Source: Gammaproteobacteria bacterium (GTDB taxonomy: Bacteria > Pseudomonadota > Gammaproteobacteria > DRLM01). Taken from it: a DNA stretch of 64,000 nt. Shown here piece by piece: positions 39,316 through 52,493 of the stretch. Numbering within the stretch: position 1 is the first letter of the stretch; each line of letters starts with the position of its first letter. Made by a program: the position numbers and the translations under genes. A model generated the notes under the pieces. It was not told the DNA's origin. It ran no database searches and saw nothing but the letters and a program-made list of their open reading frames with translations. The DNA is taken from positions 71,794 through 135,793 of the forward strand of contig JARRQJ010000003.1 of the NCBI GenBank assembly GCA_037381915.1, read 5' to 3'.

Positions 39316-40411
39316 TTACAATCCGCTCTTCAAGCTTGCTTCAATAAATCCGTCCAGATCGCCGTCCAGCGCCGCCTGGGTATTACCCACCTCGACGCCG
39401 GTACGCAGGTCTTTGATGCGGGACTGATCCAACACATAGGAGCGAATCTGACTGCCCCAGCCGATGTCCGACTTGCTGTCTTCCAGCGCCTGCTCGGCGA
39501 CGCGGCGCTTCTGCATCTCCATTTCATACAGCTTGGCCTTGAGCTGTTTCATGGCAGTGGCGCGATTCTTATGTTGCGAGCGATCGCTTTGACACGATAC
39601 CACGATACCGCTGGGAACGTGAGTAATGCGGATGGCCGACTCGGTGCGGTTGACGTGCTGTCCGCCGGCGCCGCTGGCGCGATAGGTGTCCACCTTCAAA
39701 TCCACGGGGTTGATTTCGATATCGATGTCATCGTCCACTTCCGGTGATATGAACACCGAGGCGAACGAGGTGTGCCGACGGTTGCCGGAGTCGAACGGCG
39801 ATTTACGGACCAGGCGATGCACCCCGGTCTCGGTACGCAACCAGCCGTAGGCGTAATCCCCCTCGAATTTCACCGTTGCGCTCTTGATCCCCGCCACTTC
39901 ACCGTCGGAGATCTCGATGATTTCCGTGTTGAAGCCGTGCCGCTCGCCCCAACGCAGGTACATCCGCAGTAGCATGTTGGCCCAATCCTGGGCCTCGGTG
40001 CCGCCGGAGCCGGCCTGGATGTCCATGAAGGCGTTGTTGGGATCCATCTCGCCGGAAAACATGCGGCGAAATTCCAGGGCTTCAAGGTGCCCTTCCAATC
40101 TGTCCAGGTCGGCAACCACCCCCTCCACCGTCGCCTCGTCCCCCTCCTCCTCGGCCAATTCCAGCAATCCGCCGGCGTCCTCCAAACCCGTGTCCAGTGA
40201 GCGGATGGTATTCACCACCTGTTCAAGCCTGGCCCGCTCCCTGCCCAAATCCTGGGCGCGCTCCGGTTTATTCCAGATATCAGGTTCTTCCAGTTCCCGC
40301 TCGACCTCCACCAACCGCTCACGCTTGGTGTCGTAGTCAAAGATACCCCCTCAGGGAGGCGGCCCGCTCCCTCATGTCGTCGATGCGTCTATATATGATA
40401 TTGATTTCCAT
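39316..40411 (-). CDS. prfB: Peptide chain release factor 2 with programmed +1 ribosomal frameshift
   Basis: Frame 0: ATG 40411 then [24 protein letters not shown] ending at an in-frame TGA (40339..40337). The sequence AGG GGG TAT CTT TGA C is the canonical RF2 autoregulatory shift site. The +1 frame continues [22 protein letters not shown].. to the stop at 39316. Contains the SPF and GGQ motifs. Confidence 0.9.
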
Positions 40412-40592
40412 AATGAAAATGTAGTTGCCCCATCAAAAATAGTTGGTGATTTTAGCACAACCGCCCAAGTCAGGCCTAACGTTTTCAAGGTGTTAATGCG
40501 TCAGCATACTACCGCGTGGCTTGCTTACCGGATACTTAATGACGCAGCGCTCTTACCTAAAGAAACAAAATGAAGGCTTGCCTTAATCCATT

Positions 40593-40612
40593 TTTGGGAT
40601 AGAATTCCCAAA
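40593..40612. promoter_or_regulatory. 20-bp palindrome TTTGGGA-TAGAAT-TCCCAAA about 82 nt upstream of cassette-1 gene A1
   Basis: Perfect 7-bp inverted arms; the same arms and spacing recur upstream of A2 (45098..45117); candidate operator for the cassette. Confidence 0.5.
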
Positions 40613-40693
40613 TACGGTTCTTGGCAAACCTGACAATTCGCAACCGTCGCTTCACGGTTCTTAATTGGTGGCATTAAGGTAAGGAGCATCATC

Positions 40694-42196
40694 ATGATGA
40701 CGCAACAGCAGATCGCGATCGCGGGGACCGCCCTTGCAATCACGCTGACCCTCATGGCTTGTGGCAGCGGTAGCGACGGTACCAGCGGATCCCTGTCTTC
40801 CAGCTCGACGACAACGACCAGTCAAGGCGTCATTACCGGCTTTGGCAGCGTCTTCGTTAACGGCGTCGAATATTACATCGGCAACAACACCGCAATCAGT
40901 GTCAACGGACGTGATAGGTCGGAATCCGACCTGCAACTGGGCATGTTGGTCACTGTGAAAGGCACCGTAAACCCGGACGGCAAGATCGGCATGGCGAACG
41001 AGATCACCTACGCCAACCAGGTGAATGGCGTGGTAACCGCGAACACCGTAAGCAGCGACGGCACCGGCACCTTGACGGTCATGGGCCAAACCGTCACCGT
41101 CACCGCCGATACGGTGTTCGACAGTAACGTCGCCGGCATCACCTCGCCGGACCTCATACAAGTCGGCAACATCGTCGAGATCAGCGGCTATGCCTCGAAT
41201 ACCGGTGACATCACGGCAACCCGCATCGAGGTGAAGGCCAGTTCCCAGACGGCTGTAGCGATGATAGAGGTGAAAGGCGTCATCTCGAATCTCGACACGA
41301 CCACTTCCACGTTCACCATCGGCGGTCTGACGGTCGATTACAGCGGACTCAGCGCCGCCAACCTGCCCAGCGTCGCCCTCGCGGACGGCCTCTATGTCGA
41401 AGTAAAAAGCACGACGACCTTCGATGGGACTGGCCCGTTAGTCGCGAGCGCGATCTATCTGGAAGACGATGGTTTCAAAGGTCATGATGGCCACGAAGGC
41501 GAAGGTCTCGAAGTATGGGGCCTAGTCACCGCGGATTATGCCAATGGCCAGTTTGAGGTGAACGGACGCACCGTTCAGGTCGATGCAAACACTCTGCTCG
41601 TCAACGGCACCACCGACCAGTTGCTGACCGGCAACCAGATCAAGGTCCGCACTCACTATGACGCCAATGGCAATCTGGTGGCGGATAGGATCGAATTCAA
41701 ATTTACTACCGCATATGAATTCCAGGGAACCCTGCAAGCGGTCGACACCACAGCCGGCACGGTCACGGTGCTCGGTAAGACCATCTACGTCAACTCCAGT
41801 ACTCTCATGATGGACAAGAGCAGTGACGCCATGCGTTACTTCAGTCTCACCGACCTGGATCCCAATAACTCCGATTATCTCGAAGTCCATGCCTATAAGG
41901 ACGCCGCCACCGGCAACTTAATCGCCACCAAGCTGGAACGGGAAAGCTACTCGTCCCAGTCTAAGCTCATCGGGCCGGTGCAAGCCGTTAACAGCCTCGT
42001 CGTAGCCGACGTCCCCGTCGACACCTCCACCGCGGGCATCATTCCCACCCTGAATGTGGGCCAGACCGTGATGATCATCGGCAGCTATAGCAACGATACC
42101 TTGACGGCCACGAAGCTTTCAGTGGTTCAGCCCCTGGCGTCGGAGCATGGCTTTGAAACCTATCATGACAATCATTTCGACGAACATATGAGTTAA
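40694..42196 (+). CDS. Modular lipoprotein A1 (500 aa): signal peptide plus lipobox, Ser/Thr linker, then about 6 tandem beta-rich modules of ~75 aa (recalls DUF5666-type modules)
   Basis: AAGGAGC RBS; N-terminus MMTQQQIAIAGTALAITLTLMAC-GSGS (lipobox LMAC); repeated motif ..G.I..h.....F.V.GQTV.V.A.T.F.......L..G..VEV.G.....G.I.AT.IE..; paralog of A2. Confidence 0.8.
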   Translation: MMTQQQIAIAGTALAITLTLMACGSGSDGTSGSLSSSSTTTTSQGVITGFGSVFVNGVEYYIGNNTAISVNGRDRSESDLQLGMLVTVKGTVNPDGKIGMANEITYANQVNGVVTANTVSSDGTGTLTVMGQTVTVTADTVFDSNVAGITSPDLIQVGNIVEISGYASNTGDITATRIEVKASSQTAVAMIEVKGVISNLDTTTSTFTIGGLTVDYSGLSAANLPSVALADGLYVEVKSTTTFDGTGPLVASAIYLEDDGFKGHDGHEGEGLEVWGLVTADYANGQFEVNGRTVQVDANTLLVNGTTDQLLTGNQIKVRTHYDANGNLVADRIEFKFTTAYEFQGTLQAVDTTAGTVTVLGKTIYVNSSTLMMDKSSDAMRYFSLTDLDPNNSDYLEVHAYKDAATGNLIATKLERESYSSQSKLIGPVQAVNSLVVADVPVDTSTAGIIPTLNVGQTVMIIGSYSNDTLTATKLSVVQPLASEHGFETYHDNHFDEHMS

Positions 42197-42261
42197 TATC
42201 CAGCTACGCAACGTAAGGCATGCTATAGAAGCGGTGATCTTGACAACCAGTTATCAATTGT

Positions 42262-43083
42262 ATGGCAACGGCACTCAATAAAGCCCTCTCAGCGGCGATC
42301 CTCAGGCTTCTCCGCCCTCTGGTACGCATATTGTTGCGCAATGGCGTTTCCTATAATGGCTTTGCTGATCTGGCGAAATGGATGTTCGTGGACGTCGCCG
42401 CCAAGGAATTCGGCGTCCCCGGACGTAAACAATCCGACTCGCGAATTTCTGTAGTTACCGGACTGACGCGCAAGGAAGTGGCGCGGGTCAAAGGCATTGA
42501 GACCCCGGACGACAGCGCTGCCGAACAGCAGTACAATCGAGCCGCCCGGGTCATCGCCGGGTGGTTGCGCGACCGACGCTTCTGTGCGCAGGACGGATCC
42601 CCCACGCTTCTCCCCTTTGATGGCGAAAACAGTTTCAGCGAATTGGTCAAATCCTACAGCGGCGACATGACTGCACGCTCCATTCTCGATGAACTAATAC
42701 GCGTCGGCGCGGTCGAACGCACTCAAGAGGGTATGATACATCTGCTTGTCTCAGCCTATGTACCAGTGGGCAGTGATGCCGGAAAGCTCCATATTCTCGG
42801 CACCGATATAGCTTTGCTCATTGGAACCATTGACCACAACATGCACGAGTCGCAACAACAACCCCGTTTTCAGCGCAAGGTTGCCTACGACAACCTGCCC
42901 GAAGAGGCTCTGCCCAAACTGCGGGAGTTGGCCAATGCTCATGGTCAGGCACTGCTGCAGGAAATCGATCGTTATCTATCTCAGCAGGACCGCGACATCA
43001 ATCCGGGCGTTGAGGGAACCGGACGCAAGCACGCGGGCCTAGGCATCTACCTATTCGAGGAAGATGTGCCCGAGGAGAATTGA
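42262..43083 (+). CDS. Cassette protein R1 (273 aa): soluble, uncharacterized, with an HTH-like segment (SRISVVTGLTRKEVARVK); paralog of R2
   Basis: About 70% identical to R2 by eye; no TM or signal peptide; stop TGA 43081-43083 lies 1 nt before the B1 ATG; C-terminal EDVPEEN codons encode the GAGGAGAA SD for B1. Confidence 0.75.
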   Translation: MATALNKALSAAILRLLRPLVRILLRNGVSYNGFADLAKWMFVDVAAKEFGVPGRKQSDSRISVVTGLTRKEVARVKGIETPDDSAAEQQYNRAARVIAGWLRDRRFCAQDGSPTLLPFDGENSFSELVKSYSGDMTARSILDELIRVGAVERTQEGMIHLLVSAYVPVGSDAGKLHILGTDIALLIGTIDHNMHESQQQPRFQRKVAYDNLPEEALPKLRELANAHGQALLQEIDRYLSQQDRDINPGVEGTGRKHAGLGIYLFEEDVPEEN

Positions 43084-43084
43084 C

Positions 43085-44623
43085 ATGGCAAGCCAGCGAG
43101 TCAGATATTTCAGCTTGATGACCGTATTTCTACTCGGTCTCGTGGCTTGCGGCGGCGGCACGCAGGTAGCCGGTGGCGGTATCGGTGGCACCGGCATCAG
43201 TCAGGGCCCTATCACTGGCTTCGGCAGCATTTTCGTCAACGGTGTCGAATTCAATACCGACAACGCTACCATCATCAAGGACGGCACAGCCATCGGCCCT
43301 GTTTCTACGAGCGAGCTGAAAAATTATTTGAAGGTCGGCATGGTGGTCACCGTTGACGGTAGCATCGCCAACAGCATCAGCGGCACGGCCGCCAGCGTGA
43401 CCTATGCCAAGGAATTGGAGGGACCCATCTCCGCCATCACGCTTCCCAACACTCTCTCCGTACTCGGACAAACGGTGATCGTGGACAATTTGACCAAGAT
43501 TGAGGTTGCGGGCTTAGCCACGCCGTCGATTTCCGATCTCGCGGTCGGCGACGTCGTCGAGGTAAGCGGTTATTCTACCGCCGCCGGTATTCGCGCCACC
43601 TATATCGACGCCAAACCAAGTGGTACAACGAAGGAATACGAATTAAACGGCATGATTGGCGCAATCAACGCAAGCAATCCCACCCTGCTCACCATCGGAA
43701 CCCAAACGGTGGATATCAACGGAGCCAGTTTTAACTTTACGCCGAAGGTCGGTGACTACGTCGAGGTCAAGGGCACAATCAGCGCGGGAGGCATTTTGGC
43801 GGCCACTTCGCTCGAACTCAAATCCCGTGCTTTAAACCTGGCGAATGCAGACAAAGCGGAAGTAGAAGGCTACGTCACGGCTACGACCTCCGCCACTGAG
43901 TTCGTACTAAACGCCCAAGTAGTACAGATCACCGCCCAAACCACGTTCAGCGGTGGCATCGCCTCCGATATTGTACCGGGAGTGATAGTTGAAGTTGAAG
44001 GATCCTTAGTCGACGGCACGCTCATCGCTACAAAGATATCCTTCGAGGATGATCTCGAATTGGAAGGAAATGTTGCAGCTATCAACACCTCCACAAACAC
44101 CTTAACCTTAGCTTCCTACCCCGCCATCAGTATCAGCTTCAGCGCCATTTTGACGGATCTTGAAGGCGTACCCAACTTCACTGCAATTAACCCCGGTGAC
44201 CATATAAAGGTACGGGGGCGTCCGCTGGACGCCTCCAACTGCAGTAGCGGGACATGTGTGTTGGCCACCCAGCTTACTCTGGAAAGCGCCGTCGCGGGAA
44301 GCACCGGCGGATCGAGCGGATCAACATCAACTGGCTCAAGCGGCTCAGGAAGCTCCACTGACAGTTCCGGTGGCTCGACCACATCGACAACGGACACCAC
44401 CACCGTCGAGCTTCAAGGCCCCATTGATAACATCGTACCTGGCCAAAGCTTCACCGTTCTCGGCGTTACGGTAGACGCTACTTCCCTGACCAGCTTTAGT
44501 GGCGATGGCATTACCGACAGCTCCACATTTTTTGACACGGTCAAAAGCGGCGATCTGGTCGATGTCACGGGGACACAAGTGGGCACGATTGTTACTTGGC
44601 AAGCGGTAGAACTAGACAACTGA
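43085..44623 (+). CDS. Modular lipoprotein B1 (512 aa): lipobox LVAC-GGG, Gly-rich linker, tandem beta-rich modules, Ser/Thr/Gly low-complexity tract and a conserved CxxxxC pair
   Basis: ATG 43085 with GAGGAGAA SD 7 nt upstream; N-terminus MASQRVRYFSLMTVFLLGLVAC; shares the module consensus of A-type but is a distinct subfamily; paralog of B2. Confidence 0.8.
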   Translation: MASQRVRYFSLMTVFLLGLVACGGGTQVAGGGIGGTGISQGPITGFGSIFVNGVEFNTDNATIIKDGTAIGPVSTSELKNYLKVGMVVTVDGSIANSISGTAASVTYAKELEGPISAITLPNTLSVLGQTVIVDNLTKIEVAGLATPSISDLAVGDVVEVSGYSTAAGIRATYIDAKPSGTTKEYELNGMIGAINASNPTLLTIGTQTVDINGASFNFTPKVGDYVEVKGTISAGGILAATSLELKSRALNLANADKAEVEGYVTATTSATEFVLNAQVVQITAQTTFSGGIASDIVPGVIVEVEGSLVDGTLIATKISFEDDLELEGNVAAINTSTNTLTLASYPAISISFSAILTDLEGVPNFTAINPGDHIKVRGRPLDASNCSSGTCVLATQLTLESAVAGSTGGSSGSTSTGSSGSGSSTDSSGGSTTSTTDTTTVELQGPIDNIVPGQSFTVLGVTVDATSLTSFSGDGITDSSTFFDTVKSGDLVDVTGTQVGTIVTWQAVELDN

Positions 44624-44942
44624 AAATGGAAAGTCTCCACCACCGCTAGAATTGCCTTTCGGCCTGCCGAATCCACCTTAAGCTTTTCTGGTGGGACCGA
44701 AAGCGTTTCTCTTGAGCGAGCTTCGCTGCTCTATACTCAGCCCTCATTGGCTACGGCGCATTGCGACACCATTGCAGGGCCACCCATACGAGCCCAACGC
44801 CCCCGCCCAAACGCAGAAAATCATCACGGCCGGGTTGTAGCTAGTCTCCGTAACTGTTCCTTTCCCACCAGCCATGCTGCGCTTGGCGCGTCGTCCCGGC
44901 GCAATCTCCTATGCAGTTCAAGCCAGGTGAGCCGCCTAGGAT

Positions 44943-44960
44943 GGGTATTCTGTGATACCC
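44943..44960. promoter_or_regulatory. Palindrome GGGTAT-TCTGTG-ATACCC in the inter-cassette spacer
   Basis: Perfect 6-bp inverted repeat with a 6-nt spacer, about 255 nt upstream of A2; significance unknown. Confidence 0.25.
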
Positions 44961-45097
44961 AACTGATTAGAATAATCACCATTCCCCAAACGATCCTAAC
45001 AGCGTGGATCGGCCTCTTCTCTCACCCACGGGCTGAATTACTCTGGAAATGTGACCCCACCCTCAGTTCCAGTATCTACTGCTTGCACGCCATCATT

Positions 45098-45117
45098 TTT
45101 GGGAATATTTTCCCAAA
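45098..45117. promoter_or_regulatory. 20-bp palindrome TTTGGGA-ATATTT-TCCCAAA about 81 nt upstream of cassette-2 gene A2
   Basis: Same arms and the same distance to the ATG as the element upstream of A1 (40593..40612); flanks are also similar (CATTTTTGGGA...TCCCAAATnC). Confidence 0.5.
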
Positions 45118-45197
45118 TGCAGAGCGCAACTTTTTGACGCCGCCTACCCGGTGGGCCCTGACAGAATTTTAATTATTAACAATAGAGGATTAATGTC

Positions 45198-46616
45198 ATG
45201 AAAAAACAATACATTGCACAATCCGCGATGGCGGCTGCCGTCTCCCTAGCTTTAGCTGCCTGTGGTGGCGGTAGCGCCGGTGGCCTAGCTTCATCCACAA
45301 CAACCCAGGGCGTCATTACCGGGTTCGGCAGCGTCTTTGTCAATGGAGTGGAATACAACACCGACTCCAGCACGGCCATCAATATGGAAGGCGTCGATAG
45401 CCCCGAATCCGCCCTCGAGGTCGGGATGCTTGTGACCTTGCAAGGTAGCGTCAATGCAGACGGCAAGACCGGGACGGCCAAGGCGATCAAATACTCCAAC
45501 CAAATGGAGGGGGTGGTCAATGCAAACAGTATCGCCGCCGATGGTACCGGCACCCTCACCGTGATGGGCGAAACCGTAAATGTCACCGCCGATACGATCT
45601 TCGAGAGTAAGGTCGCGGGGGTCACCGCTCTCAATCTCATCCAGGTAGGCAACATCGTGGAGGTCAGCGGCTACGCCTCAAGCACCGGGATAGTGATTGC
45701 TACGCGTATCGAAGTCAAGGCAGCGTCACAGGCACCAGGCTCCGTCATTGAGCTCAAGGGCATAATCTCCGGCCTCGATGCTACTAACAAGACCTTCATG
45801 TTCGGCAGTGTCACTGTAGATTACAGTGGGGTCACCCCAGCGGACATGCCCAGCGTCGGCTTGGCGAATGGACAATATGTCGAGGTCAAAAGCACCACCG
45901 CATACAACGGTACTGGCAACCTAGTCGCCGCCATCATCGAACTCAGTGATGATGGTGTGAAGGGGCATGACGGCAAGGAAGGCGAAGATCTTGAAGTCAA
46001 GGGCTTGGTCACGTCAAATTTCGCCAATGGTCAGTTCGAGTTGAACGGACGTGTTGTAACGGTTGATTCCAGCACCGAGTATGACAACGGTAGCACCGCA
46101 CAATTGCTGACCGGTGCAAAAGTCCAGATGGAGTCCCATTTTGACGCCAGCGGCAATCTGATCGCGGATCAAGTCGAATTCGAACAGACCTCTGAACTTG
46201 AATTCGCAGGGACCTTAGAGGCGGTCGATACAACAGCCGACACCGTCACGATCATGGGGCAGCAATTCTATGTGGACAACAACACCATCATGCTCGATGA
46301 CCTCAATGCAGTCCGCTTCTTTAAACTGGCCGATTTGTCTGTTGCCAATAGCGATCATCTGGAGATAAATGCCTATACAGATGCAGCTACGGGGCATCTC
46401 GTCGCCACAAGACTTGAACGCACGCAATTCGCTACAGAGGCAACGCTGACAGGGGTAGTGGATACCACTAATACGTTGACAGTATCGGGTGTTCCCGTTG
46501 ACACGTCTACGACGACCGGAGTTATTCCAACTCTGACCACCGGCAGCAAGGTGGAAATCACCGGCACCTATATCAACGGCGTACTGTATGCCAGCCAAAT
46601 AAACCTGGCGATCTGA
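45198..46616 (+). CDS. Modular lipoprotein A2 (472 aa), paralog of A1
   Basis: AGAGGA RBS; MKKQYIAQSAMAAAVSLALAAC-GGGS lipobox; the same ~6 modules in the same order as A1 (for example TLTVMGETVNVTADTIFESKVAGVTALNLIQVGNIVEVSGYASSTG). Confidence 0.8.
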   Translation: MKKQYIAQSAMAAAVSLALAACGGGSAGGLASSTTTQGVITGFGSVFVNGVEYNTDSSTAINMEGVDSPESALEVGMLVTLQGSVNADGKTGTAKAIKYSNQMEGVVNANSIAADGTGTLTVMGETVNVTADTIFESKVAGVTALNLIQVGNIVEVSGYASSTGIVIATRIEVKAASQAPGSVIELKGIISGLDATNKTFMFGSVTVDYSGVTPADMPSVGLANGQYVEVKSTTAYNGTGNLVAAIIELSDDGVKGHDGKEGEDLEVKGLVTSNFANGQFELNGRVVTVDSSTEYDNGSTAQLLTGAKVQMESHFDASGNLIADQVEFEQTSELEFAGTLEAVDTTADTVTIMGQQFYVDNNTIMLDDLNAVRFFKLADLSVANSDHLEINAYTDAATGHLVATRLERTQFATEATLTGVVDTTNTLTVSGVPVDTSTTTGVIPTLTTGSKVEITGTYINGVLYASQINLAI

Positions 46617-47458
46617 TGAGGCTACGCAAGCTTGATTGGTGTAACCGGACCGCGGCAATTGTCCGCCTGCTTCGCCCGCTGATCCGCATCTTGCTGCGTA
46701 ACGGCATCTCCTATAACGCTTTTGCGGATTTGGCGAAATGGGTATACGTAGATGTGGCGAGCAAAGAATTCACCGTGCCGGGGCGCAAGCAATCCGTTTC
46801 ACGTATTTCGGTGATTACCGGCTTGACGCGCAAGGAAGTTGCGCGCGTTAAAAGCATCACCGTCCCTAGCGATACCGATGAAGCTGCGCAATACAACCGT
46901 GCGTCACGTGTAATTGGTGGGTGGCTACGCGATCGCCGCTTTTCCCCGCAAGATGGACTTGCCGCGCCACTCCCATTCGATGGCGTCGGAGGCTTTAACG
47001 AGCTCGTCAGAACCTACAGTGGCGACATGACGGCGCGAGCCATGCTTGATGAGCTACTTCGGGCCGGCGCCGTTTCTCGGGATCAGAACGGTGCCATTCA
47101 TCTCCTAGCCTCCGGTTACATACCTAAGGACAGTGATCCCGCCAAGCTCAATATCCTTGGCAGCGACGTGGCGCTGTTGATCGGTACTATAGACCATAAC
47201 TTGCAGATCTCCGAGGAACCGCCTCGCTTTCAACGCAAAGTCGCCTATGACAACCTTCCCGTGGAGGCGCTCCCCAAACTCAGAAAATTCACCCAAGAGC
47301 GCGCCCAAGCTGTACTCGAAGAAGTCAACCGCTATCTATCCCAACAAGATCGCGACATCAATCCATCCATGCAGGGTTCCGCCCGAAAGAACGCCGGCAT
47401 CGGCATTTATTATTTTGAAGAGGATGTGCCTGAGGAGAACGAAAATGGCAATTCATAG
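46616..47458 (+). CDS. Cassette protein R2 (280 aa), paralog of R1
   Basis: ATG overlaps the A2 stop (TGATG); same HTH-like segment SRISVITGLTRKEVARVK; C-terminal ..EDVPEENENGNS overlaps the B2 start by 14 nt. Confidence 0.75.
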   Translation: MRLRKLDWCNRTAAIVRLLRPLIRILLRNGISYNAFADLAKWVYVDVASKEFTVPGRKQSVSRISVITGLTRKEVARVKSITVPSDTDEAAQYNRASRVIGGWLRDRRFSPQDGLAAPLPFDGVGGFNELVRTYSGDMTARAMLDELLRAGAVSRDQNGAIHLLASGYIPKDSDPAKLNILGSDVALLIGTIDHNLQISEEPPRFQRKVAYDNLPVEALPKLRKFTQERAQAVLEEVNRYLSQQDRDINPSMQGSARKNAGIGIYYFEEDVPEENENGNS

Positions 47459-48827
47459 ATTCATTCACACTACATTAATCTCACTCCTGGTGGCCGGCAT
47501 GGTCGCTTGCGGCGGCACCCAATTGGCCGGTGGCGGCATCGGCGGAACCGGCATCAGCCAAGGCCCCATTACCGGGTTCGGTAGCATCTTCGTTAATGGC
47601 GTCGAATTCAACACTAACAACGCCACCATAATCAAAGACGGCCTTCCGGTTACGCAAAAAGATCTGAAGGTCGGCATGATAGTCACTGTTAGCGGTAACA
47701 TCGCCACCAGCACCAGTGGCACAGCGGCCACCGTAACCTACGCCAAAGAACTACAAGGACCGATTACCGCCATCACTCTCCCCAACACCCTCACCGTACT
47801 AGGTCAAGAAGTAAATGTTGATAACTTTACCAAGATTGAGGTAACGGGTGTATCGTCCGCGGGAATCGCCAATCTTAATCTGCAGGACACGGTAGAGGTC
47901 AGCGGATTTCCCGCAGTGAATGGCGCTATTCGCGCCACTTACATCGAGGTTAAACCACCCAGCGCCGACGTCGAACTCACAGGATTTGTCAGCGCAAGTG
48001 CAAACAAGGTCGTTACCATCGGTACTCAGGCGGTGGATATCAGCGCTATCAACCCATTAGTCACGCCTGTGCTCGGCGAGTACGTGGAAGTGAAGGGTGT
48101 CCTGAGTGGGACGATTTTGCAGGCAAGCTCTTTTGACGCGAAGTCTCGCTCACTGGAATCCACCAACGCCGACAAGGCGGAACTGCAAGGTCTTGTCAAC
48201 AGCGTGAACTCCTCGACCGAGTTTCTGATAAACGGCCAGGCGGTACAAACGAGCTCACAAACGAATTTCAATGGCGGCACTGCCGACGATATTAACGTCG
48301 GACAGTGGCTTGAAGTTGAAGGTAGCCTGGCAAACGGCGTACTCATCGCCGCCACGGTAACTTTCGAAGATGATATAAGCCTGGAAGGTAATGTAGCCGC
48401 CTTAAACGGCAATAGCATAAGCCTAGACGGTTATCCCGGCATCAGCATAGAAGTGAATGACGTATTGACCGATGGCAGTACCAATCCGCATGGCATTGGA
48501 GACCATGTAAAGATTCGGGGCCGCAAACTCAGCTCGAGCTGTGGCACAGCGGTATGTCTGCTCGCAACGGAACTCGAGTCAACGACGATAAGCGGTGCAA
48601 CACCGATGGAACTGCAAGGGCCGCTCGAGGCATTTGATCCCGCGGCTGGAACCATTACCGTCCTTGGAATCACGATAGATACATCGCCTATTCAAAGCTT
48701 CAGCGGTACCGGCATTACGGACGCTACGAGCTTCTTTAATACCGTCAAAATCGGCGACCTGATCGATACCACTGGTAGCCAAGTGGGCGGCGCAATTACC
48801 TGGCAAGCGATAGAATTGAATGACTAA
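47445..48827 (+). CDS. Modular lipoprotein B2 (460 aa), paralog of B1
   Basis: ATG 47445 with GAGGAGAA SD; MAIHRFIHTTLISLLVAGMVAC-GGTQ lipobox; the GGGIGGTGISQGPITGFGSIFVNGVEFNT block is identical to B1; conserved SSCGTAVCLLATEL Cys pair. Confidence 0.8.
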   Translation: MAIHRFIHTTLISLLVAGMVACGGTQLAGGGIGGTGISQGPITGFGSIFVNGVEFNTNNATIIKDGLPVTQKDLKVGMIVTVSGNIATSTSGTAATVTYAKELQGPITAITLPNTLTVLGQEVNVDNFTKIEVTGVSSAGIANLNLQDTVEVSGFPAVNGAIRATYIEVKPPSADVELTGFVSASANKVVTIGTQAVDISAINPLVTPVLGEYVEVKGVLSGTILQASSFDAKSRSLESTNADKAELQGLVNSVNSSTEFLINGQAVQTSSQTNFNGGTADDINVGQWLEVEGSLANGVLIAATVTFEDDISLEGNVAALNGNSISLDGYPGISIEVNDVLTDGSTNPHGIGDHVKIRGRKLSSSCGTAVCLLATELESTTISGATPMELQGPLEAFDPAAGTITVLGITIDTSPIQSFSGTGITDATSFFNTVKIGDLIDTTGSQVGGAITWQAIELND

Positions 48828-50247: not shown

Positions 50248-51201
50248 TCAGGCCGAGCGCAGGAAATGCACGCTGAACAGCGCCTCCGAGTCGGTCCATA
50301 CCCGCAGCGGCCGATAACCGGCACGACGGGCAAGCGCTTGAAACTCCTCGATGCTGTATTTGTAGGAGTTTTCGGTATGAATCGTCTCGCCTTCATCCAG
50401 GCTGAACTCGTGGCCGCCGACAACCACGCTCTGGGCTCGGCGGCTGATCAGATGCATCTCGACCCGCCCTTGCTGGCGATTGTAAAAGGCCTGGTGCCGA
50501 AAACCGTTGAGATCGATATGGGCGTCCAGATCGCGCTGCAGCCGGCCGAGAATATTGAGGTTGAAGGCGGCAGTGACACCGGCCGCGTCGTCGTACGCGG
50601 CTTCGATGCGCTTCACTTCCTTCTTGAGATCGATGCTGAGCAGCAGGGAGCCGCCCTCCCCCAGCAGATTGCGGAGATTGGCCAAAAAGGCCACCGCCGC
50701 ATCGGGTTCAAAGTTGCCCAGTGTCGAGCCGGGAAAGAACGCCACCCGCTTGGCGCCTTCGGGGAAAAAGTCCAGATTCAACGGTTGGCAGTAATCGGCG
50801 CAGACGGGATGGACTTCCAGCCAGTCATAATCCGCGGCGAGGGCCTCGGCGGAGCTGCGCAGCTGCTGGCGCGAGATATCGATGGGCACGTACATGGCGG
50901 GACGCAGGTGTTCGAGCAGCAGCCGTACTTTCACCCCCGCGCCGCTGCCCAGTTCCACCAAACAGGCGTCCTCTTCCACCAGCGCGGCCATTTCTCCGGC
51001 GTGGCGTTCCAGGATGGCGATCTCCGTGCGGGTGAGATAATACTCCGGCAACTCGCAGATGCGTTCGAACAGTTGCGCGCCGCGATGATCGTAGAACAGT
51101 TTGGGCGGTAATGCCTTCGGGGTCGCGGCCAGGCCTGCGAGCACCTCGCTCATCAAGCTTGCAGAACTCGGATGATAATCGTGGAAATAGACGCCGGCCA
51201 T
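50248..51201 (-). CDS. egtD: L-histidine N-alpha-methyltransferase EgtD (ergothioneine biosynthesis)
   Basis: 317 aa; SAM-methyltransferase motif LVELGSGAGVK; EgtD-like sequence (YVPIDIS, FFPGSTLGNF). Confidence 0.8.
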   Translation of the reverse strand: MAGVYFHDYHPSSASLMSEVLAGLAATPKALPPKLFYDHRGAQLFERICELPEYYLTRTEIAILERHAGEMAALVEEDACLVELGSGAGVKVRLLLEHLRPAMYVPIDISRQQLRSSAEALAADYDWLEVHPVCADYCQPLNLDFFPEGAKRVAFFPGSTLGNFEPDAAVAFLANLRNLLGEGGSLLLSIDLKKEVKRIEAAYDDAAGVTAAFNLNILGRLQRDLDAHIDLNGFRHQAFYNRQQGRVEMHLISRRAQSVVVGGHEFSLDEGETIHTENSYKYSIEEFQALARRAGYRPLRVWTDSEALFSVHFLRSA

Positions 51202-52493
51202 TATCTCGGATCGTCCGCCAGGCGGATGCCGCTGAATTGCCAGCGATCGGCGGGGTAAAAGAAATTGCGGTAGCTGGCGCGGATGTGACCCGCCGGGGTG
51301 GCACAGGAGCCGCCGCGCAACACGATCTGATTACACATGAATTTCCCGTTATATTCGCCGAGCGTGCCGGCCAGGGGACGAAAACCCGGATAGGCGACAT
51401 AGGGGCTTTGCGTCCATTCCCATACATCGCCGTAGAGCTGCCGCATCCCCGCGCCCTGCGCGGCCATGGGATGATAACGGTCCGTGCCTTGAAGATTGCC
51501 GGTCACCGTCGCTTGCCGCGCCGCCACTTCCCACTCCGCTTCGGTGGGCAGACGCCTGCCGGCCCAGCGGGCGTAGGCATCCGCCTCATAATAACTCACG
51601 TGGCAGACCGGTTCATGCTCATCCACCGCGCGCATTCCGGCAAGGGTCATGTGCCGCCAGCCCCCGTCGCCGTATTCCCAATAAAGGGGGGCCTCCCAGC
51701 TGCGTTCCCTGACCGTGCGCCAGCCTTCCGACAACCAGTATTCCGGGCGTCGATAGCCATCATCCGCCATGAACTCCAGATATTCGCCGTTGGTGATCGG
51801 ACGTGAAGCCAGACGAAAGTCCTCAAGATAGACGCGATGGCGCGGGGTTTCATTGTCGTAACAAAACGCCTCCCCCGCGTGACCGATCTCATAAAGGCCG
51901 CCCGCGAATTCGTGCCATGCTGGCGCCGGGGGCGGCGCCGACACCCCGCGCCCCGTGTCCTGATATACCGGACACAGAGGCTGGGAGGCAAAGATATGCT
52001 TGATATCGGTGAGGAGCAATTCCTGATGCTGCTGCTCATGGTGGATACCGAGCGTAGCGCGGAAAGCCACATCCGGCCATTGTTGGTCCGGCATGCAGTC
52101 GATCAGCCGCACCATCCACTCATCGACATGATGTCGATAGCGATAAACCTCCTCCAGCGCCGGACGCGACAGAAAGCCGCGTCGGGACCGCGGATGCATG
52201 GGGCCCGCGCCTTCATAGTACGAGTTGAACAATACGGCGAATTGGGGATGGAACTCGCGATAATCGGACAGGAACGGCTTCAGCAGAAAGGTCTCGAACA
52301 ACCAACTGACATGAGCGAGGTGCCACTTGGGCGGACTGACGTCGGGCATGGTCTGCATGCAGCAGTCCTCCGCCGACAACGGCGCGCATAATTTCTCGCT
52401 CATGCCGCGTACGGACCGATAGTGCGACAACAGGGCTTGTCGCTCCGGCATAGCCGTTTCATTTCTCAGAGCCCTATCCGTCGGCGACGCCAT
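51201..52493 (-). CDS. egtB: Hercynine oxygenase / sulfoxide synthase EgtB (DinB_2 plus FGE-sulfatase domains)
   Basis: 430 aa; N-terminal DinB-like region with the HEQQHQELL iron-binding motif; C-terminal FGE-like domain; overlaps the egtD start. Confidence 0.8.
   Translation of the reverse strand: MASPTDRALRNETAMPERQALLSHYRSVRGMSEKLCAPLSAEDCCMQTMPDVSPPKWHLAHVSWLFETFLLKPFLSDYREFHPQFAVLFNSYYEGAGPMHPRSRRGFLSRPALEEVYRYRHHVDEWMVRLIDCMPDQQWPDVAFRATLGIHHEQQHQELLLTDIKHIFASQPLCPVYQDTGRGVSAPPPAPAWHEFAGGLYEIGHAGEAFCYDNETPRHRVYLEDFRLASRPITNGEYLEFMADDGYRRPEYWLSEGWRTVRERSWEAPLYWEYGDGGWRHMTLAGMRAVDEHEPVCHVSYYEADAYARWAGRRLPTEAEWEVAARQATVTGNLQGTDRYHPMAAQGAGMRQLYGDVWEWTQSPYVAYPGFRPLAGTLGEYNGKFMCNQIVLRGGSCATPAGHIRASYRNFFYPADRWQFSGIRLADDPR

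What the first reader, a model, noticed from the sequence alone, without database searches (positions are those of the whole stretch)
40593..45117. Identical-arm palindrome TTTGGGA-N6-TCCCAAA at the same distance upstream of both cassettes
The site at 40593-40612 is TTTGGGA-TAGAAT-TCCCAAA. The site at 45098-45117 is TTTGGGA-ATATTT-TCCCAAA. Both have perfect 7-bp inverted arms and similar flanks (CATTTTTGGGA...TCCCAAAT). They lie 82 and 81 nt upstream of the A1 and A2 start codons, respectively. Conservation of both sequence and position in front of paralogous operons, in otherwise diverged AT-rich leaders, argues for a shared dimeric DNA-binding regulator site. A shared CCTGACA(A/G)AATT box also lies downstream of each, but its spacing is not conserved.
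Basis: seen in the sequence. Interest (0 to 1): 0.7.

Follow-up and report, generated by a model that had tools for sequence, protein, structure and literature searches.

The report
Conserved operator inside DUF6502 operon promoters
The two identical-arm palindromes are real and are copies of an operator that wraps the -10 box of the promoter of a widespread two-gene module; it probably lets the uncharacterised DUF6502 protein, which looks like a DNA-binding regulator, repress its own operon.

Summary
TTTGGGA-N6-TCCCAAA occurs only at 40593-40612 and 45098-45117, 82 and 81 nt before two paralogous cassettes (DUF5666 lipoprotein, DUF6502, DUF5666 lipoprotein).

The core TTGGGA-N6-TCCCAA lies in front of the DUF6502/DUF5666 module in 65 of 75 loci from Gammaproteobacteria, Desulfobacterales and Nitrospirota. 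In reverse, 33 of 120 metagenomic occurrences of the exact 20-mer adjoin a DUF6502 or DUF5666 gene.

A logo of 83 sites shows a one-sided TTGA 16-17 nt upstream and a TATAAT-like spacer. The palindrome therefore brackets the -10 box of a sigma-70 promoter. It is not a leader element.

DUF6502 is the only non-exported protein of the module. Its SRxSxxTGLxRKE helix-turn-helix is nearly invariant. A confident model (pLDDT 90.6) has the HetR-DNA complex as its only full-length structural match (Foldseek probability 0.98, TM 0.35), with no sequence support.

Best reading: an autorepressor operator shared by both paralogues. Binding and repression are inferred, not shown. The CCTGACA box is not conserved. 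No paper in the held library mentions DUF6502.

The parts
40578..40583 (+). -35-like hexamer TTGCCT of the cassette-1 promoter
   Evidence: The promoter scan calls TTGCCT-16 nt-TAGAAT, 9 of 12 matches. The position equals -15..-10 of the family logo, where TTGA is enriched. TTG is invariant in syntenic relatives.
40593..40612 (.). Operator O1: TTTGGGA-TAGAAT-TCCCAAA
   Evidence: It is conserved as an island in otherwise diverged intergenic DNA of relatives L001, L081 and L085.
40600..40605 (+). -10-like hexamer TAGAAT, which is the spacer of O1
   Evidence: Spacer positions 7-12 of the 83-site logo read T/A-A/T-A-T/A-A-T.
40694..42196 (+). A1: DUF5666 lipoprotein, 500 aa, lipobox LMAC
   Evidence: Pfam PF18914, E 1.6e-50. 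The N-terminus is MMTQQQIAIAGTALAITLTLMACGSG.
42262..43083 (+). R1: DUF6502 protein, 273 aa, the candidate operator-binding regulator
   Evidence: Pfam PF20112, E 1.6e-87. The model has pLDDT 90.6 with a helix-turn-helix at residues 59-77 and a winged helix at 125-161. The top fold match is HetR-DNA.
43085..44623 (+). B1: DUF5666 lipoprotein, 512 aa from the start used in L082 (the longest ORF starts at 43064)
   Evidence: Pfam PF18914, E 1.9e-50. The gene call in L082 gives the start. Lipobox LVAC.
45083..45088 (+). -35-like hexamer TTGCAC of the cassette-2 promoter (weak, 3 of 6)
   Evidence: It has the same register relative to the palindrome as in cassette 1 and in the logo. The consensus scan does not call it.
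45098..45117 (.). Operator O2: TTTGGGA-ATATTT-TCCCAAA
45106..45111 (+). -10-like hexamer TATTTT, 17 nt after the -35-like hexamer
   Evidence: Read from the sequence. It fits the spacer logo.
45198..46616 (+). A2: DUF5666 lipoprotein, 472 aa, lipobox LAAC
   Evidence: Pfam PF18914, E 5.2e-47. N-terminus.
46616..47458 (+). R2: DUF6502 paralogue, 68% identical to R1. Its first ~10 codons are replaced because of a 126-nt gap relative to L083.
   Evidence: Pfam PF20112, E 2.1e-84. Identity. Its helix-turn-helix SRISVITGLTRKEVARV differs from R1 by one V/I.
47445..48827 (+). B2: DUF5666 lipoprotein, 460 aa from the start used in L082 (the longest ORF starts at 47247)
   Evidence: Pfam PF18914, E 1.6e-37. 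Gene call in L082. Lipobox MVAC.

Best explanation
Each palindrome is the operator of a sigma-70-type promoter that drives a DUF5666-DUF6502-DUF5666 operon. The two arms (TTGGGA / TCCCAA) flank the -10 hexamer, and a -35-like TTG box lies 16-17 nt upstream. A dimer bound to the arms would therefore cover the -10 box and the start site and block RNA polymerase. The binder is most likely the DUF6502 protein encoded in the operon, acting as an autorepressor. R1 and R2 have practically identical helix-turn-helix segments and the two operators have identical arms, so both paralogues (possibly heterodimers) probably act on both promoters. Shown: the sequence, its cross-phylum conservation, its promoter register, its reciprocal association with DUF6502, and the predicted DNA-binding fold. 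Inferred: physical binding by DUF6502, the sign of regulation, the start site and the inducing signal, which is unknown.
For: The window holds only two sites, against 0.18 expected. Starting from the gene: among 75 genome loci with enough upstream DNA, 32 have a perfect TTGGGA-N6-TCCCAA, 21 have one mismatch and 12 have two mismatches within -350..+60 of the first module gene. About 0.07 loci with one mismatch or fewer are expected by chance. Most hits outside that window are second sites next to DUF6502 or further operators. Starting from the motif: of 120 metagenomic stretches with the exact TTTGGGA-W6-TCCCAAA, 29 adjoin DUF6502 and 4 adjoin DUF5666, and 31 of these 33 lie within 150 nt of the 5' end of the reading frame. 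The 83-site logo was selected only on GGGA-N6-TCCC. It nevertheless shows a one-sided upstream TTGA at -15..-12 (T 52, T 61, G 48, A 47 of 83) and an A/T-only, TATAAT-like spacer. The scan calls TTGCCT-16-TAGAAT at site 1. In syntenic relatives with 82-86% identical DUF6502, only the TTG, the palindrome and the ribosome-binding site survive in the intergenic DNA. In about 19 loci the DUF6502 ATG starts 1-6 nt after the palindrome. That fits a start site just downstream of the embedded -10 box. The DUF5666 partners carry lipoprotein signal peptides. DUF6502 is therefore the only non-exported product of the module. Its model (pLDDT 90.6, pTM 0.75) has five N-terminal helices with a helix-turn-helix at 59-77 and a winged helix at 125-161. 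Structural matches are DNA-binding proteins, with HetR-DNA first and IclR, MarR and IscR winged helices after it. The segment SRxSxxTGLxRKE is nearly invariant in all 82 module proteins, in parallel with the invariant operator core.
Against: No binding, expression or start-site data exist. The cassette-2 hexamers are weak (TTGCAC 3 of 6, TATTTT 4 of 6) and the scan does not call them. Ten of 75 loci have no recognisable site. Sixteen of 120 metagenomic hits lie in the divergent promoter of an unrelated FlhC-like gene pair, so the motif is not exclusive to DUF6502. HetR, the best structural analogue, is mainly an activator. The sign of regulation rests only on operator position.
Confidence: 0.62

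Rival explanations
1. DUF6502 binds the palindrome but acts as an activator or dual regulator, for example by remodelling the promoter or recruiting polymerase as HetR does at hetP. It would not be a simple repressor.
For: The only full-length structural analogue is HetR, an activator that also regulates itself. The cassette-2 hexamers are weak and might need help.
Against: The dyad centre coincides with the -10 hexamer. There a bound dimer competes with sigma region 2. The -35/-10 spacing is the optimal 16-17 nt. It is not the 19-20 nt of MerR-type activated promoters. Many family promoters have near-consensus TATAAT.
Confidence: 0.17
2. Another regulator encoded elsewhere binds the palindrome, for example a CRP/FNR-family protein. 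TGGGA-N6-TCCCA differs from the CRP consensus TGTGA-N6-TCACA by one base per half-site. On this view DUF6502 has a different role.
For: The 5-N6-5 geometry is that of CRP-type sites (my own knowledge). The same 20-mer also occurs at FlhC-like loci without DUF6502 nearby.
Against: A global regulator predicts sites at many unrelated promoters. The 64-kb window has only the two cassette sites. More than a quarter of random metagenomic occurrences adjoin this one rare module. The association holds across Gammaproteobacteria, Desulfobacterales and Nitrospirota, where no other neighbouring gene is conserved. DUF6502 itself has DNA-binding folds.
Confidence: 0.1
3. The palindrome acts as an RNA hairpin at the 5' end of the transcript, affecting stability or translation, and is not a DNA site.
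For: The 36-nt stretches fold into a 7-8 bp hairpin better than shuffles (z -2.8 and -2.7).
Against: Any perfect palindrome folds this way. The specific bases GGGA/TCCC are fixed across phyla, with no sign of covarying pairs. Outer positions often break pairing, as in ATGGGA...TCCCAC. The -35 and -10 register places the start site at or after the right arm. In about 19 loci the ATG follows within 1-6 nt, with no ribosome-binding site. There is no Rfam match, and the leaders are not unusually structured.
Confidence: 0.04
4. The two sites are merely leftovers of the tandem duplication of the cassette and have no function.
For: The cassette is duplicated only in this lineage. Relatives L081 and L085 have one copy between prfB and the 2-hydroxyacid dehydrogenase gene.
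Against: The surrounding upstream DNA has diverged while the palindrome and the TTG box have not. The motif is conserved across phyla.
Confidence: 0.01

Closest known systems
HetR and its hetP operator (cyanobacterial heterocyst regulator; PDB 4IZZ, 4J00, 4YRV)
   Same: HetR is a homodimeric regulator of similar size (299 versus 273 aa). Its N-terminal helical DNA-binding domain has the helix-turn-helix at about residues 60-80; in DUF6502 it is at 59-77. It binds a palindrome built on G triplets and it regulates itself (PMC4649674, PMC4192349). It is the only full-length structural match to two independent DUF6502 models.
   Different: There is no detectable sequence relationship (hhalign probability below 1%; no Pfam PF03574 match). 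The global TM-score is only 0.33-0.35. HetR needs GGG-N5-CCC, whereas here it is GGG-N8-CCC. HetR is cyanobacterial, acts mainly as an activator and is controlled by PatS peptides. DUF6502 occurs in sulfur-cycling Proteobacteria, Desulfobacterales and Nitrospirota, and its site sits on the -10 box.
Classical autorepressor operators overlapping the -10 box (for example LexA boxes, lambda OR, many TetR/MarR-type operators; from general knowledge)
   Same: A palindromic site for a dimeric helix-turn-helix protein is centred on the core promoter of the regulator's own operon and occludes RNA polymerase.
   Different: The regulator belongs to no characterised family. The arrangement of arms flanking the -10 hexamer exactly is conserved across phyla.
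CRP/FNR-type sites (TGTGA-N6-TCACA; from general knowledge)
   Same: Five-base half-sites separated by six bases, with half-site centres 11 bp apart. The sequence differs by one base per half-site.
   Different: The sites are centred on -10 instead of -41.5 or -61.5. There is no sign of a global regulon. The sites are tied to one gene module. DUF6502 has no cNMP-binding or CRP-type domain.
FlhC-like regulator loci in high-GC metagenomic contigs
   Same: The identical 20-mer TTTGGGA-W6-TCCCAAA lies in the divergent promoter region. The protein carries WTGLTDDRIRKLY, which resembles VTGLTRKEVARV of DUF6502.
   Different: This is a different protein family: about 190 aa with a C-terminal Cys4 motif and a weak Pfam FlhC match (E 9e-4, below the cut-off). 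hhalign against DUF6502 gives probability 0.1%. The promoter register is different.

Membership tests
DUF6502 (Pfam PF20112), for R1 and R2 | Full-length match to the family profile above the gathering score | tested here: met
   E 1.6e-87 (293 bits) and 2.1e-84 (283 bits), against a cut-off of 27.
DUF5666 (Pfam PF18914), for A1, B1, A2 and B2 | Repeated 60-aa DUF5666 domains above the gathering score | tested here: met
   E 1.6e-50, 1.9e-50, 5.2e-47 and 1.6e-37, with 3-6 repeats each. All four carry lipoboxes.
Sigma-70 promoter with an operator over the -10 box | -35-like and -10-like hexamers 16-18 nt apart, with the dyad centred on the -10 box | tested here: met
   TTGCCT-16-TAGAAT is called at site 1. 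TTGCAC-17-TATTTT at site 2 is weaker and not called. The family logo shows TTGA at -15..-12 and a TATAAT-like spacer.
Sigma-70 promoter with an operator over the -10 box | Transcription start a few nt downstream of the -10 box, and repression on protein binding | not testable with these tools
   There are no transcript data. Indirect support comes from about 19 loci where the ATG lies 1-6 nt after the palindrome.
Operator of the neighbouring regulator (cognate pair) | Co-occurrence of site and regulator gene across distant genomes, in both search directions | tested here: met
   65 of 75 loci from gene to motif. 33 of 120 hits from motif to gene.
Operator of the neighbouring regulator (cognate pair) | Physical, sequence-specific binding | not testable with these tools
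   Needs EMSA, footprinting or DAP-seq.
HetR family (Pfam PF03574 and PF18460) | Sequence match to the HetR profiles | tested here: not met
   Pfam finds only DUF6502, even at E up to 10. hhalign of the DUF6502 profile against HetR gives probability 0.2-0.3%. A profile search of PDB sequences does not find HetR.
HetR family (Pfam PF03574 and PF18460) | Three-domain HetR fold (DNA-binding domain 1-98, flap 99-216, hood 217-299) | tested here: inconclusive
HetR family (Pfam PF03574 and PF18460) | Recognition of GGG-N5-CCC | tested here: not met
   The site here is GGGA-N6-TCCC, that is GGG-N8-CCC. The HetR requirement is taken from PMC4192349 and PMC4649674.
CRP/FNR regulon site | TGTGA-N6-TCACA-like site upstream of many promoters, with a CRP-family regulator | tested here: not met
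   The core is TGGGA/TCCCA, with G invariant at the third position in 83 of 83 selected sites. Only the two cassette sites exist in 64 kb.
Known RNA element (Rfam) | Match to a covariance model | tested here: not met
   No match at E up to 1 in 40300-45300. Only a tRNA is found in the whole window.

The most novel reading that the evidence does not exclude
DUF6502 is a very distant structural relative of HetR. The HetR-type regulator, described as a novel fold and known from cyanobacteria, would then be one branch of a large family (about 5,500 clusters at 50% identity). That family would be spread through sulfur-cycling Proteobacteria, Desulfobacterales and Nitrospirota, read G-triplet palindromes, and control exported multi-OB lipoproteins, some of them fused to nine-haem cytochromes.
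Probability: 0.35. Interest if true: 0.8.

Novelty: new variant of a known kind. Interest (0 to 1): 0.6.

Why it matters
This turns two domains of unknown function into a testable regulatory module. It gives a defined 18-20 bp operator, a defined promoter architecture and a named candidate regulator that is present in thousands of environmental genomes. No paper in the held library mentions DUF6502.

The operator can be used at once to map regulons in sulfur-oxidiser, sulfate-reducer and Nitrospirota genomes. Sites already seen in front of DUF5666-multihaem cytochrome fusions hint at an extracytoplasmic redox function.

If the HetR resemblance holds, it would give an evolutionary context to a regulator so far treated as a cyanobacterial invention.

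Tried and rejected
- **HetR homology by sequence.** I compared the DUF6502 profiles (50 and about 140 sequences) with HetR alone and with a 121-sequence HetR alignment. No signal appeared. The HetR search returned only proteins at least 86% identical, so its profile is narrow.
- **PDB by sequence.** Profile searches of PDB sequences found nothing relevant.
- **Weak HTH families.** Pfam at E up to 10 found nothing besides DUF6502.
- **Riboswitch or leader RNA.** There is no Rfam hit, and the leaders fold no better than shuffles.
- **CCTGACA box.** It is not conserved beyond the closest relative and sits in a different register in cassette 2.
- **FlhC-like proteins as relatives of DUF6502.** hhalign gives probability 0.1%.
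- **Literature.** Searches for the motif, for DUF6502 and for 'HetR-like' returned nothing relevant.
- **First structure model.** The model from a shallow alignment was poor (pLDDT 66.7). A deeper alignment replaced it.
Full report
**Observation.** The two sites are exactly as described: TTTGGGA-TAGAAT-TCCCAAA at 40593-40612 and TTTGGGA-ATATTT-TCCCAAA at 45098-45117. With up to two mismatches in the 14 specified bases they are the only matches in the 64-kb window. Shuffles give a mean of 0.18 matches and never two. The site ends lie 82 and 81 nt before the start codons at 40694 and 45198. An alignment of the two upstream regions shows one conserved island, GCTTGC-N8-CATTTTTGGGA-N5-TTCCCAAAT, plus the ribosome-binding region.

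**Gene context.** Each site precedes a three-gene cassette: a DUF5666 protein, a DUF6502 protein and a second DUF5666 protein.
- Cassette 1: A1 40694-42196, R1 42262-43083, B1 43085-44623.
- Cassette 2: A2 45198-46616, R2 46616-47458, B2 47445-48827.

All four DUF5666 proteins start with a lipoprotein signal peptide and lipobox, so they are exported. Upstream and divergent lie prfB and lysS. Downstream lies a 2-hydroxyacid dehydrogenase gene. Close relatives carry a single cassette between the same neighbours (L081, L085). Contigs of the same species as the window (L082, L083) carry the duplication. R1 is 100% identical to a protein named only 'DUF6502 family protein' from a gammaproteobacterial MAG.

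**From gene to motif.** I scanned one genome per species for DUF6502 relatives. This gave 565 confirmed places, and the best 80 were fetched. They come from Gammaproteobacteria (Thiodiazotropha, Sedimenticolaceae, Thiohalomonadales, Ectothiorhodospiraceae, Acidiferrobacterales), Desulfobacterales and Nitrospirota. The invariant core of the neighbourhood is DUF6502 followed by an overlapping DUF5666 gene. An extra upstream DUF5666 gene, as in the window, is present in a minority.

Of the 75 loci with at least 350 nt upstream of the first module gene:
- 32 have a perfect TTGGGA-N6-TCCCAA in the region -350..+60;
- 21 have one mismatch;
- 12 have two mismatches;
- 10 have none.

For one mismatch or fewer, chance expects about 2e-6 per position, or roughly 0.07 loci in total. 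The 49 hits outside these windows are largely real second sites. Some lie directly before DUF6502 where an upstream DUF5666 gene has its own site. Some fall inside over-long ORF calls. Others precede further genes.

**From motif to gene.** Twenty-nine of them carry DUF6502 and four more carry DUF5666 beside the motif. In 31 of these 33 the motif lies within 150 nt of the 5' end of the reading frame. DUF6502 makes up about one in a million protein clusters (5,503 hits among 5.8 billion). This enrichment is far beyond chance. Of the remaining 87 stretches, 34 are from contigs below 45% G+C, where an A/T-rich 20-mer is more likely to arise by chance. In 23 the motif lies within 250 nt of a contig end, so the neighbouring gene cannot be assessed.

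**What the site is.** I built a logo from 83 sites selected only for GGGA-N6-TCCC, with all loci oriented by the downstream gene.
- The palindrome extends to (A/T)TTGGGA...TCCCAA(A/T).
- The six spacer positions are almost purely A/T and read T/A-A/T-A-T/A-A-T.
- On the upstream side only, TTGA occupies positions -15 to -12 (52, 61, 48 and 47 of 83).

That is a -35 box 16-17 nt from a -10 box which is the spacer of the palindrome. The window fits this register exactly. TTGCCT (40578-40583), 16 nt, TAGAAT (40600-40605) is called by the consensus scan. TTGCAC (45083-45088), 17 nt, TATTTT (45106-45111) is in the same register but weaker, and the scan does not call it.

In syntenic relatives whose DUF6502 is 82-86% identical, the intergenic DNA has diverged. 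Only the TTG, the T(T)TTGGGA-N6-TTCCCA block and the ribosome-binding site remain. Their spacers are TATTAT, TATTAT and TAAAAT. In about 19 loci the DUF6502 ATG begins 1-6 nt after the palindrome, with no room for a ribosome-binding site. This fits leaderless transcripts starting just downstream of the embedded -10 box, which independently supports the promoter assignment. The palindrome is therefore a promoter element. It does not lie in a transcribed leader, and the 81-82 nt distance to the ATG is a local feature of this lineage.

**RNA alternative.** The palindromes fold as hairpins, as any palindrome must. However, the bases themselves are fixed across phyla, and the outer positions often break complementarity, as in ATGGGA...TCCCAC. 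No Rfam family matches, and the leaders fold no better than shuffles.

**Who binds.** Nothing but DUF6502 and DUF5666 is conserved around the site across phyla, and DUF5666 is exported. DUF6502 has no annotated domain and no sequence relative in the PDB.

With a 132-sequence alignment of diverse representatives, AlphaFold2 gives a confident model (pLDDT 90.6, pTM 0.75). It has five N-terminal helices, including a helix-turn-helix at 59-66/70-77. A helix-helix-hairpin unit at 125-161 is typical of winged helices. Two long C-terminal helices follow.

The helix-turn-helix segment SR(V/I)S(V/I)xTGL(T/S/N)RKE(V/I) is nearly invariant in all 82 module proteins. T66, G67 and R70 are among the few residues conserved at 90% or more across the whole family. 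This mirrors the invariance of the GGGA/TCCC core. R1 and R2 differ by a single V/I in this segment, and O1 and O2 have identical arms. Cross-regulation of the two cassettes is therefore expected.

**Mechanism.** A dimer bound to arms that flank the -10 hexamer would cover roughly -19 to -2 and exclude sigma region 2. The simplest reading is autorepression, relieved by an unknown signal. An activator or dual role cannot be excluded from sequence alone.

**Comparison with HetR.** For both models the top Foldseek match in the PDB is the HetR-DNA complex.
- First model: 4izz_A, E 4.8e-3, probability 0.91.
- Confident model: 4j00_A, E 6.2e-3, probability 0.98, 315 aligned columns, TM 0.35; apo-HetR ranks second.

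HetR is a 299-aa intertwined dimer with an N-terminal DNA-binding domain of five helices. Its helix-turn-helix is formed by helices 4 and 5. The contacts are Arg62, Lys73 and Glu71, to a GGG-N5-CCC palindrome (PMC4649674; PMC4192349). The resemblance in size, helix order, position of the helix-turn-helix and G-triplet palindrome is striking.

Against this, profile comparisons give no sequence support. The global TM-score is low. The operator spacing also differs by three base pairs (GGG-N8-CCC). I therefore treat HetR as the closest known analogue and do not place DUF6502 in that family.

**Other comparisons.** The 5-N6-5 geometry equals that of CRP-type sites, and the sequence differs from TGTGA-N6-TCACA by one base per half-site. 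The position on -10, the lack of other sites in the window and the tie to one module argue against a global CRP-like regulator.

**An unexpected second context.** Sixteen of the 120 metagenomic hits lie in the divergent promoter region between two genes in high-G+C contigs. One encodes a ~190-aa protein with a weak FlhC match and a C-terminal Cys4 motif. The other encodes a ~218-aa protein with no Pfam match. The FlhC-like protein has WTGLTDDRIRKLY, which resembles the DUF6502 helix-turn-helix, but profile comparison is not significant. The 20-mer is thus not exclusive to DUF6502. This is the main caveat on the assignment.

**Novelty.** No paper in the held library mentions DUF6502. DUF5666 appears only in lists, for example among the most abundant proteins during thiosulfate disproportionation in Dissulfuribacter. 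The family is large, with 5,513 clusters at 50% identity at E up to 1e-3. The mechanism is textbook, an autoregulatory operator over the -10 box. The regulator family, its operator and the conserved arrangement of arms flanking the -10 box are undescribed.

**Verdict.** It is a new variant of a known kind, with interest 0.6.

Noticed in passing
L091, L098, L106, L114, L117, L143, L144, L154, L157, L159, L171, L183, L201, L202 (e.g. L144:1381-1400): The identical 20-mer TTTGGGA-W6-TCCCAAA lies in the divergent intergenic region between two genes in high-G+C metagenomic contigs. One encodes a ~190-aa FlhC-like protein with a Cys4 motif (Pfam FlhC E 9e-4, below the cut-off). The other encodes a ~218-aa protein with no Pfam match. 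This accounts for 16 of 120 pattern hits. The FlhC-like protein carries WTGLTDDRIRKLY, reminiscent of the DUF6502 helix-turn-helix, but hhalign gives probability 0.1%.
   Followed up: partly
window 46650-46660 (A2-R2 junction); L083:6900-7030: The window lacks 126 nt that are present in the conspecific contig L083. The missing stretch is a very G+C-rich intergenic segment plus the first ~10 codons of R2. R2 here starts from a different upstream ATG (MRLRKLDWCNRT... in place of MDTAFINAIS...). L082 has a different 85-nt gap at the same place. This could be an assembly artefact or a hypervariable spot.
   Followed up: partly
window 40338-40353, minus strand: The classical prfB +1 frameshift site AGGGGGTATCTTTGAC (Shine-Dalgarno-like, then CUU UGA C) lies 60-75 nt into the RF2 gene. 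The terminator scan flagged this stretch as terminator-like.
   Followed up: no
L002, L020, L037, L038, L043, L051, L053, L054, L057, L058, L060, L061, L067, L068, L070, L072, L077, L078, L079: The DUF6502 start codon begins 1-6 nt after the palindrome, with no ribosome-binding site. This implies leaderless mRNAs transcribed from the -10 box embedded in the operator.
   Followed up: partly
L022:2805-5858, L023:2845-5853, L034:2850-5858, L033:3743-5902, L163:1444 onward: DUF5666-type lipoproteins are fused to a nine-haem (9 CxxCH) cytochrome region in tubeworm and clam symbionts and in Sedimenticola. Each is preceded by the same operator. This hints at an extracytoplasmic redox role for the regulon.
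   Followed up: partly
L002:4078/4103, L024:4453/4479, L048:4317/4343, L073:7992/8016: Some loci have two operators in tandem, with starts 24-26 bp apart.
   Followed up: no
L052:2433, L054:8168, L059:2405, L073:7992, L077:5384: Extra operators precede genes outside the two families, next to the module. These are a 352-aa P-loop protein, a 408-aa glycosyltransferase-like protein and a 142-aa zinc-ribbon-like protein. They are candidate further regulon members.
   Followed up: no
L003:5992-6009, L018:5992-6009: In one clade the site reads TTGGGAAnTATGACCCAr, with the DUF6502 ATG inside the spacer. The right arm is then constrained by coding, and the promoter must lie elsewhere.
   Followed up: no
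window 50248-52493, minus strand: By synteny with L082, these genes carry Methyltransf_33 and FGE-sulfatase/DinB_2 domains. That is the EgtD/EgtB-like pair of ergothioneine synthesis.
   Followed up: no
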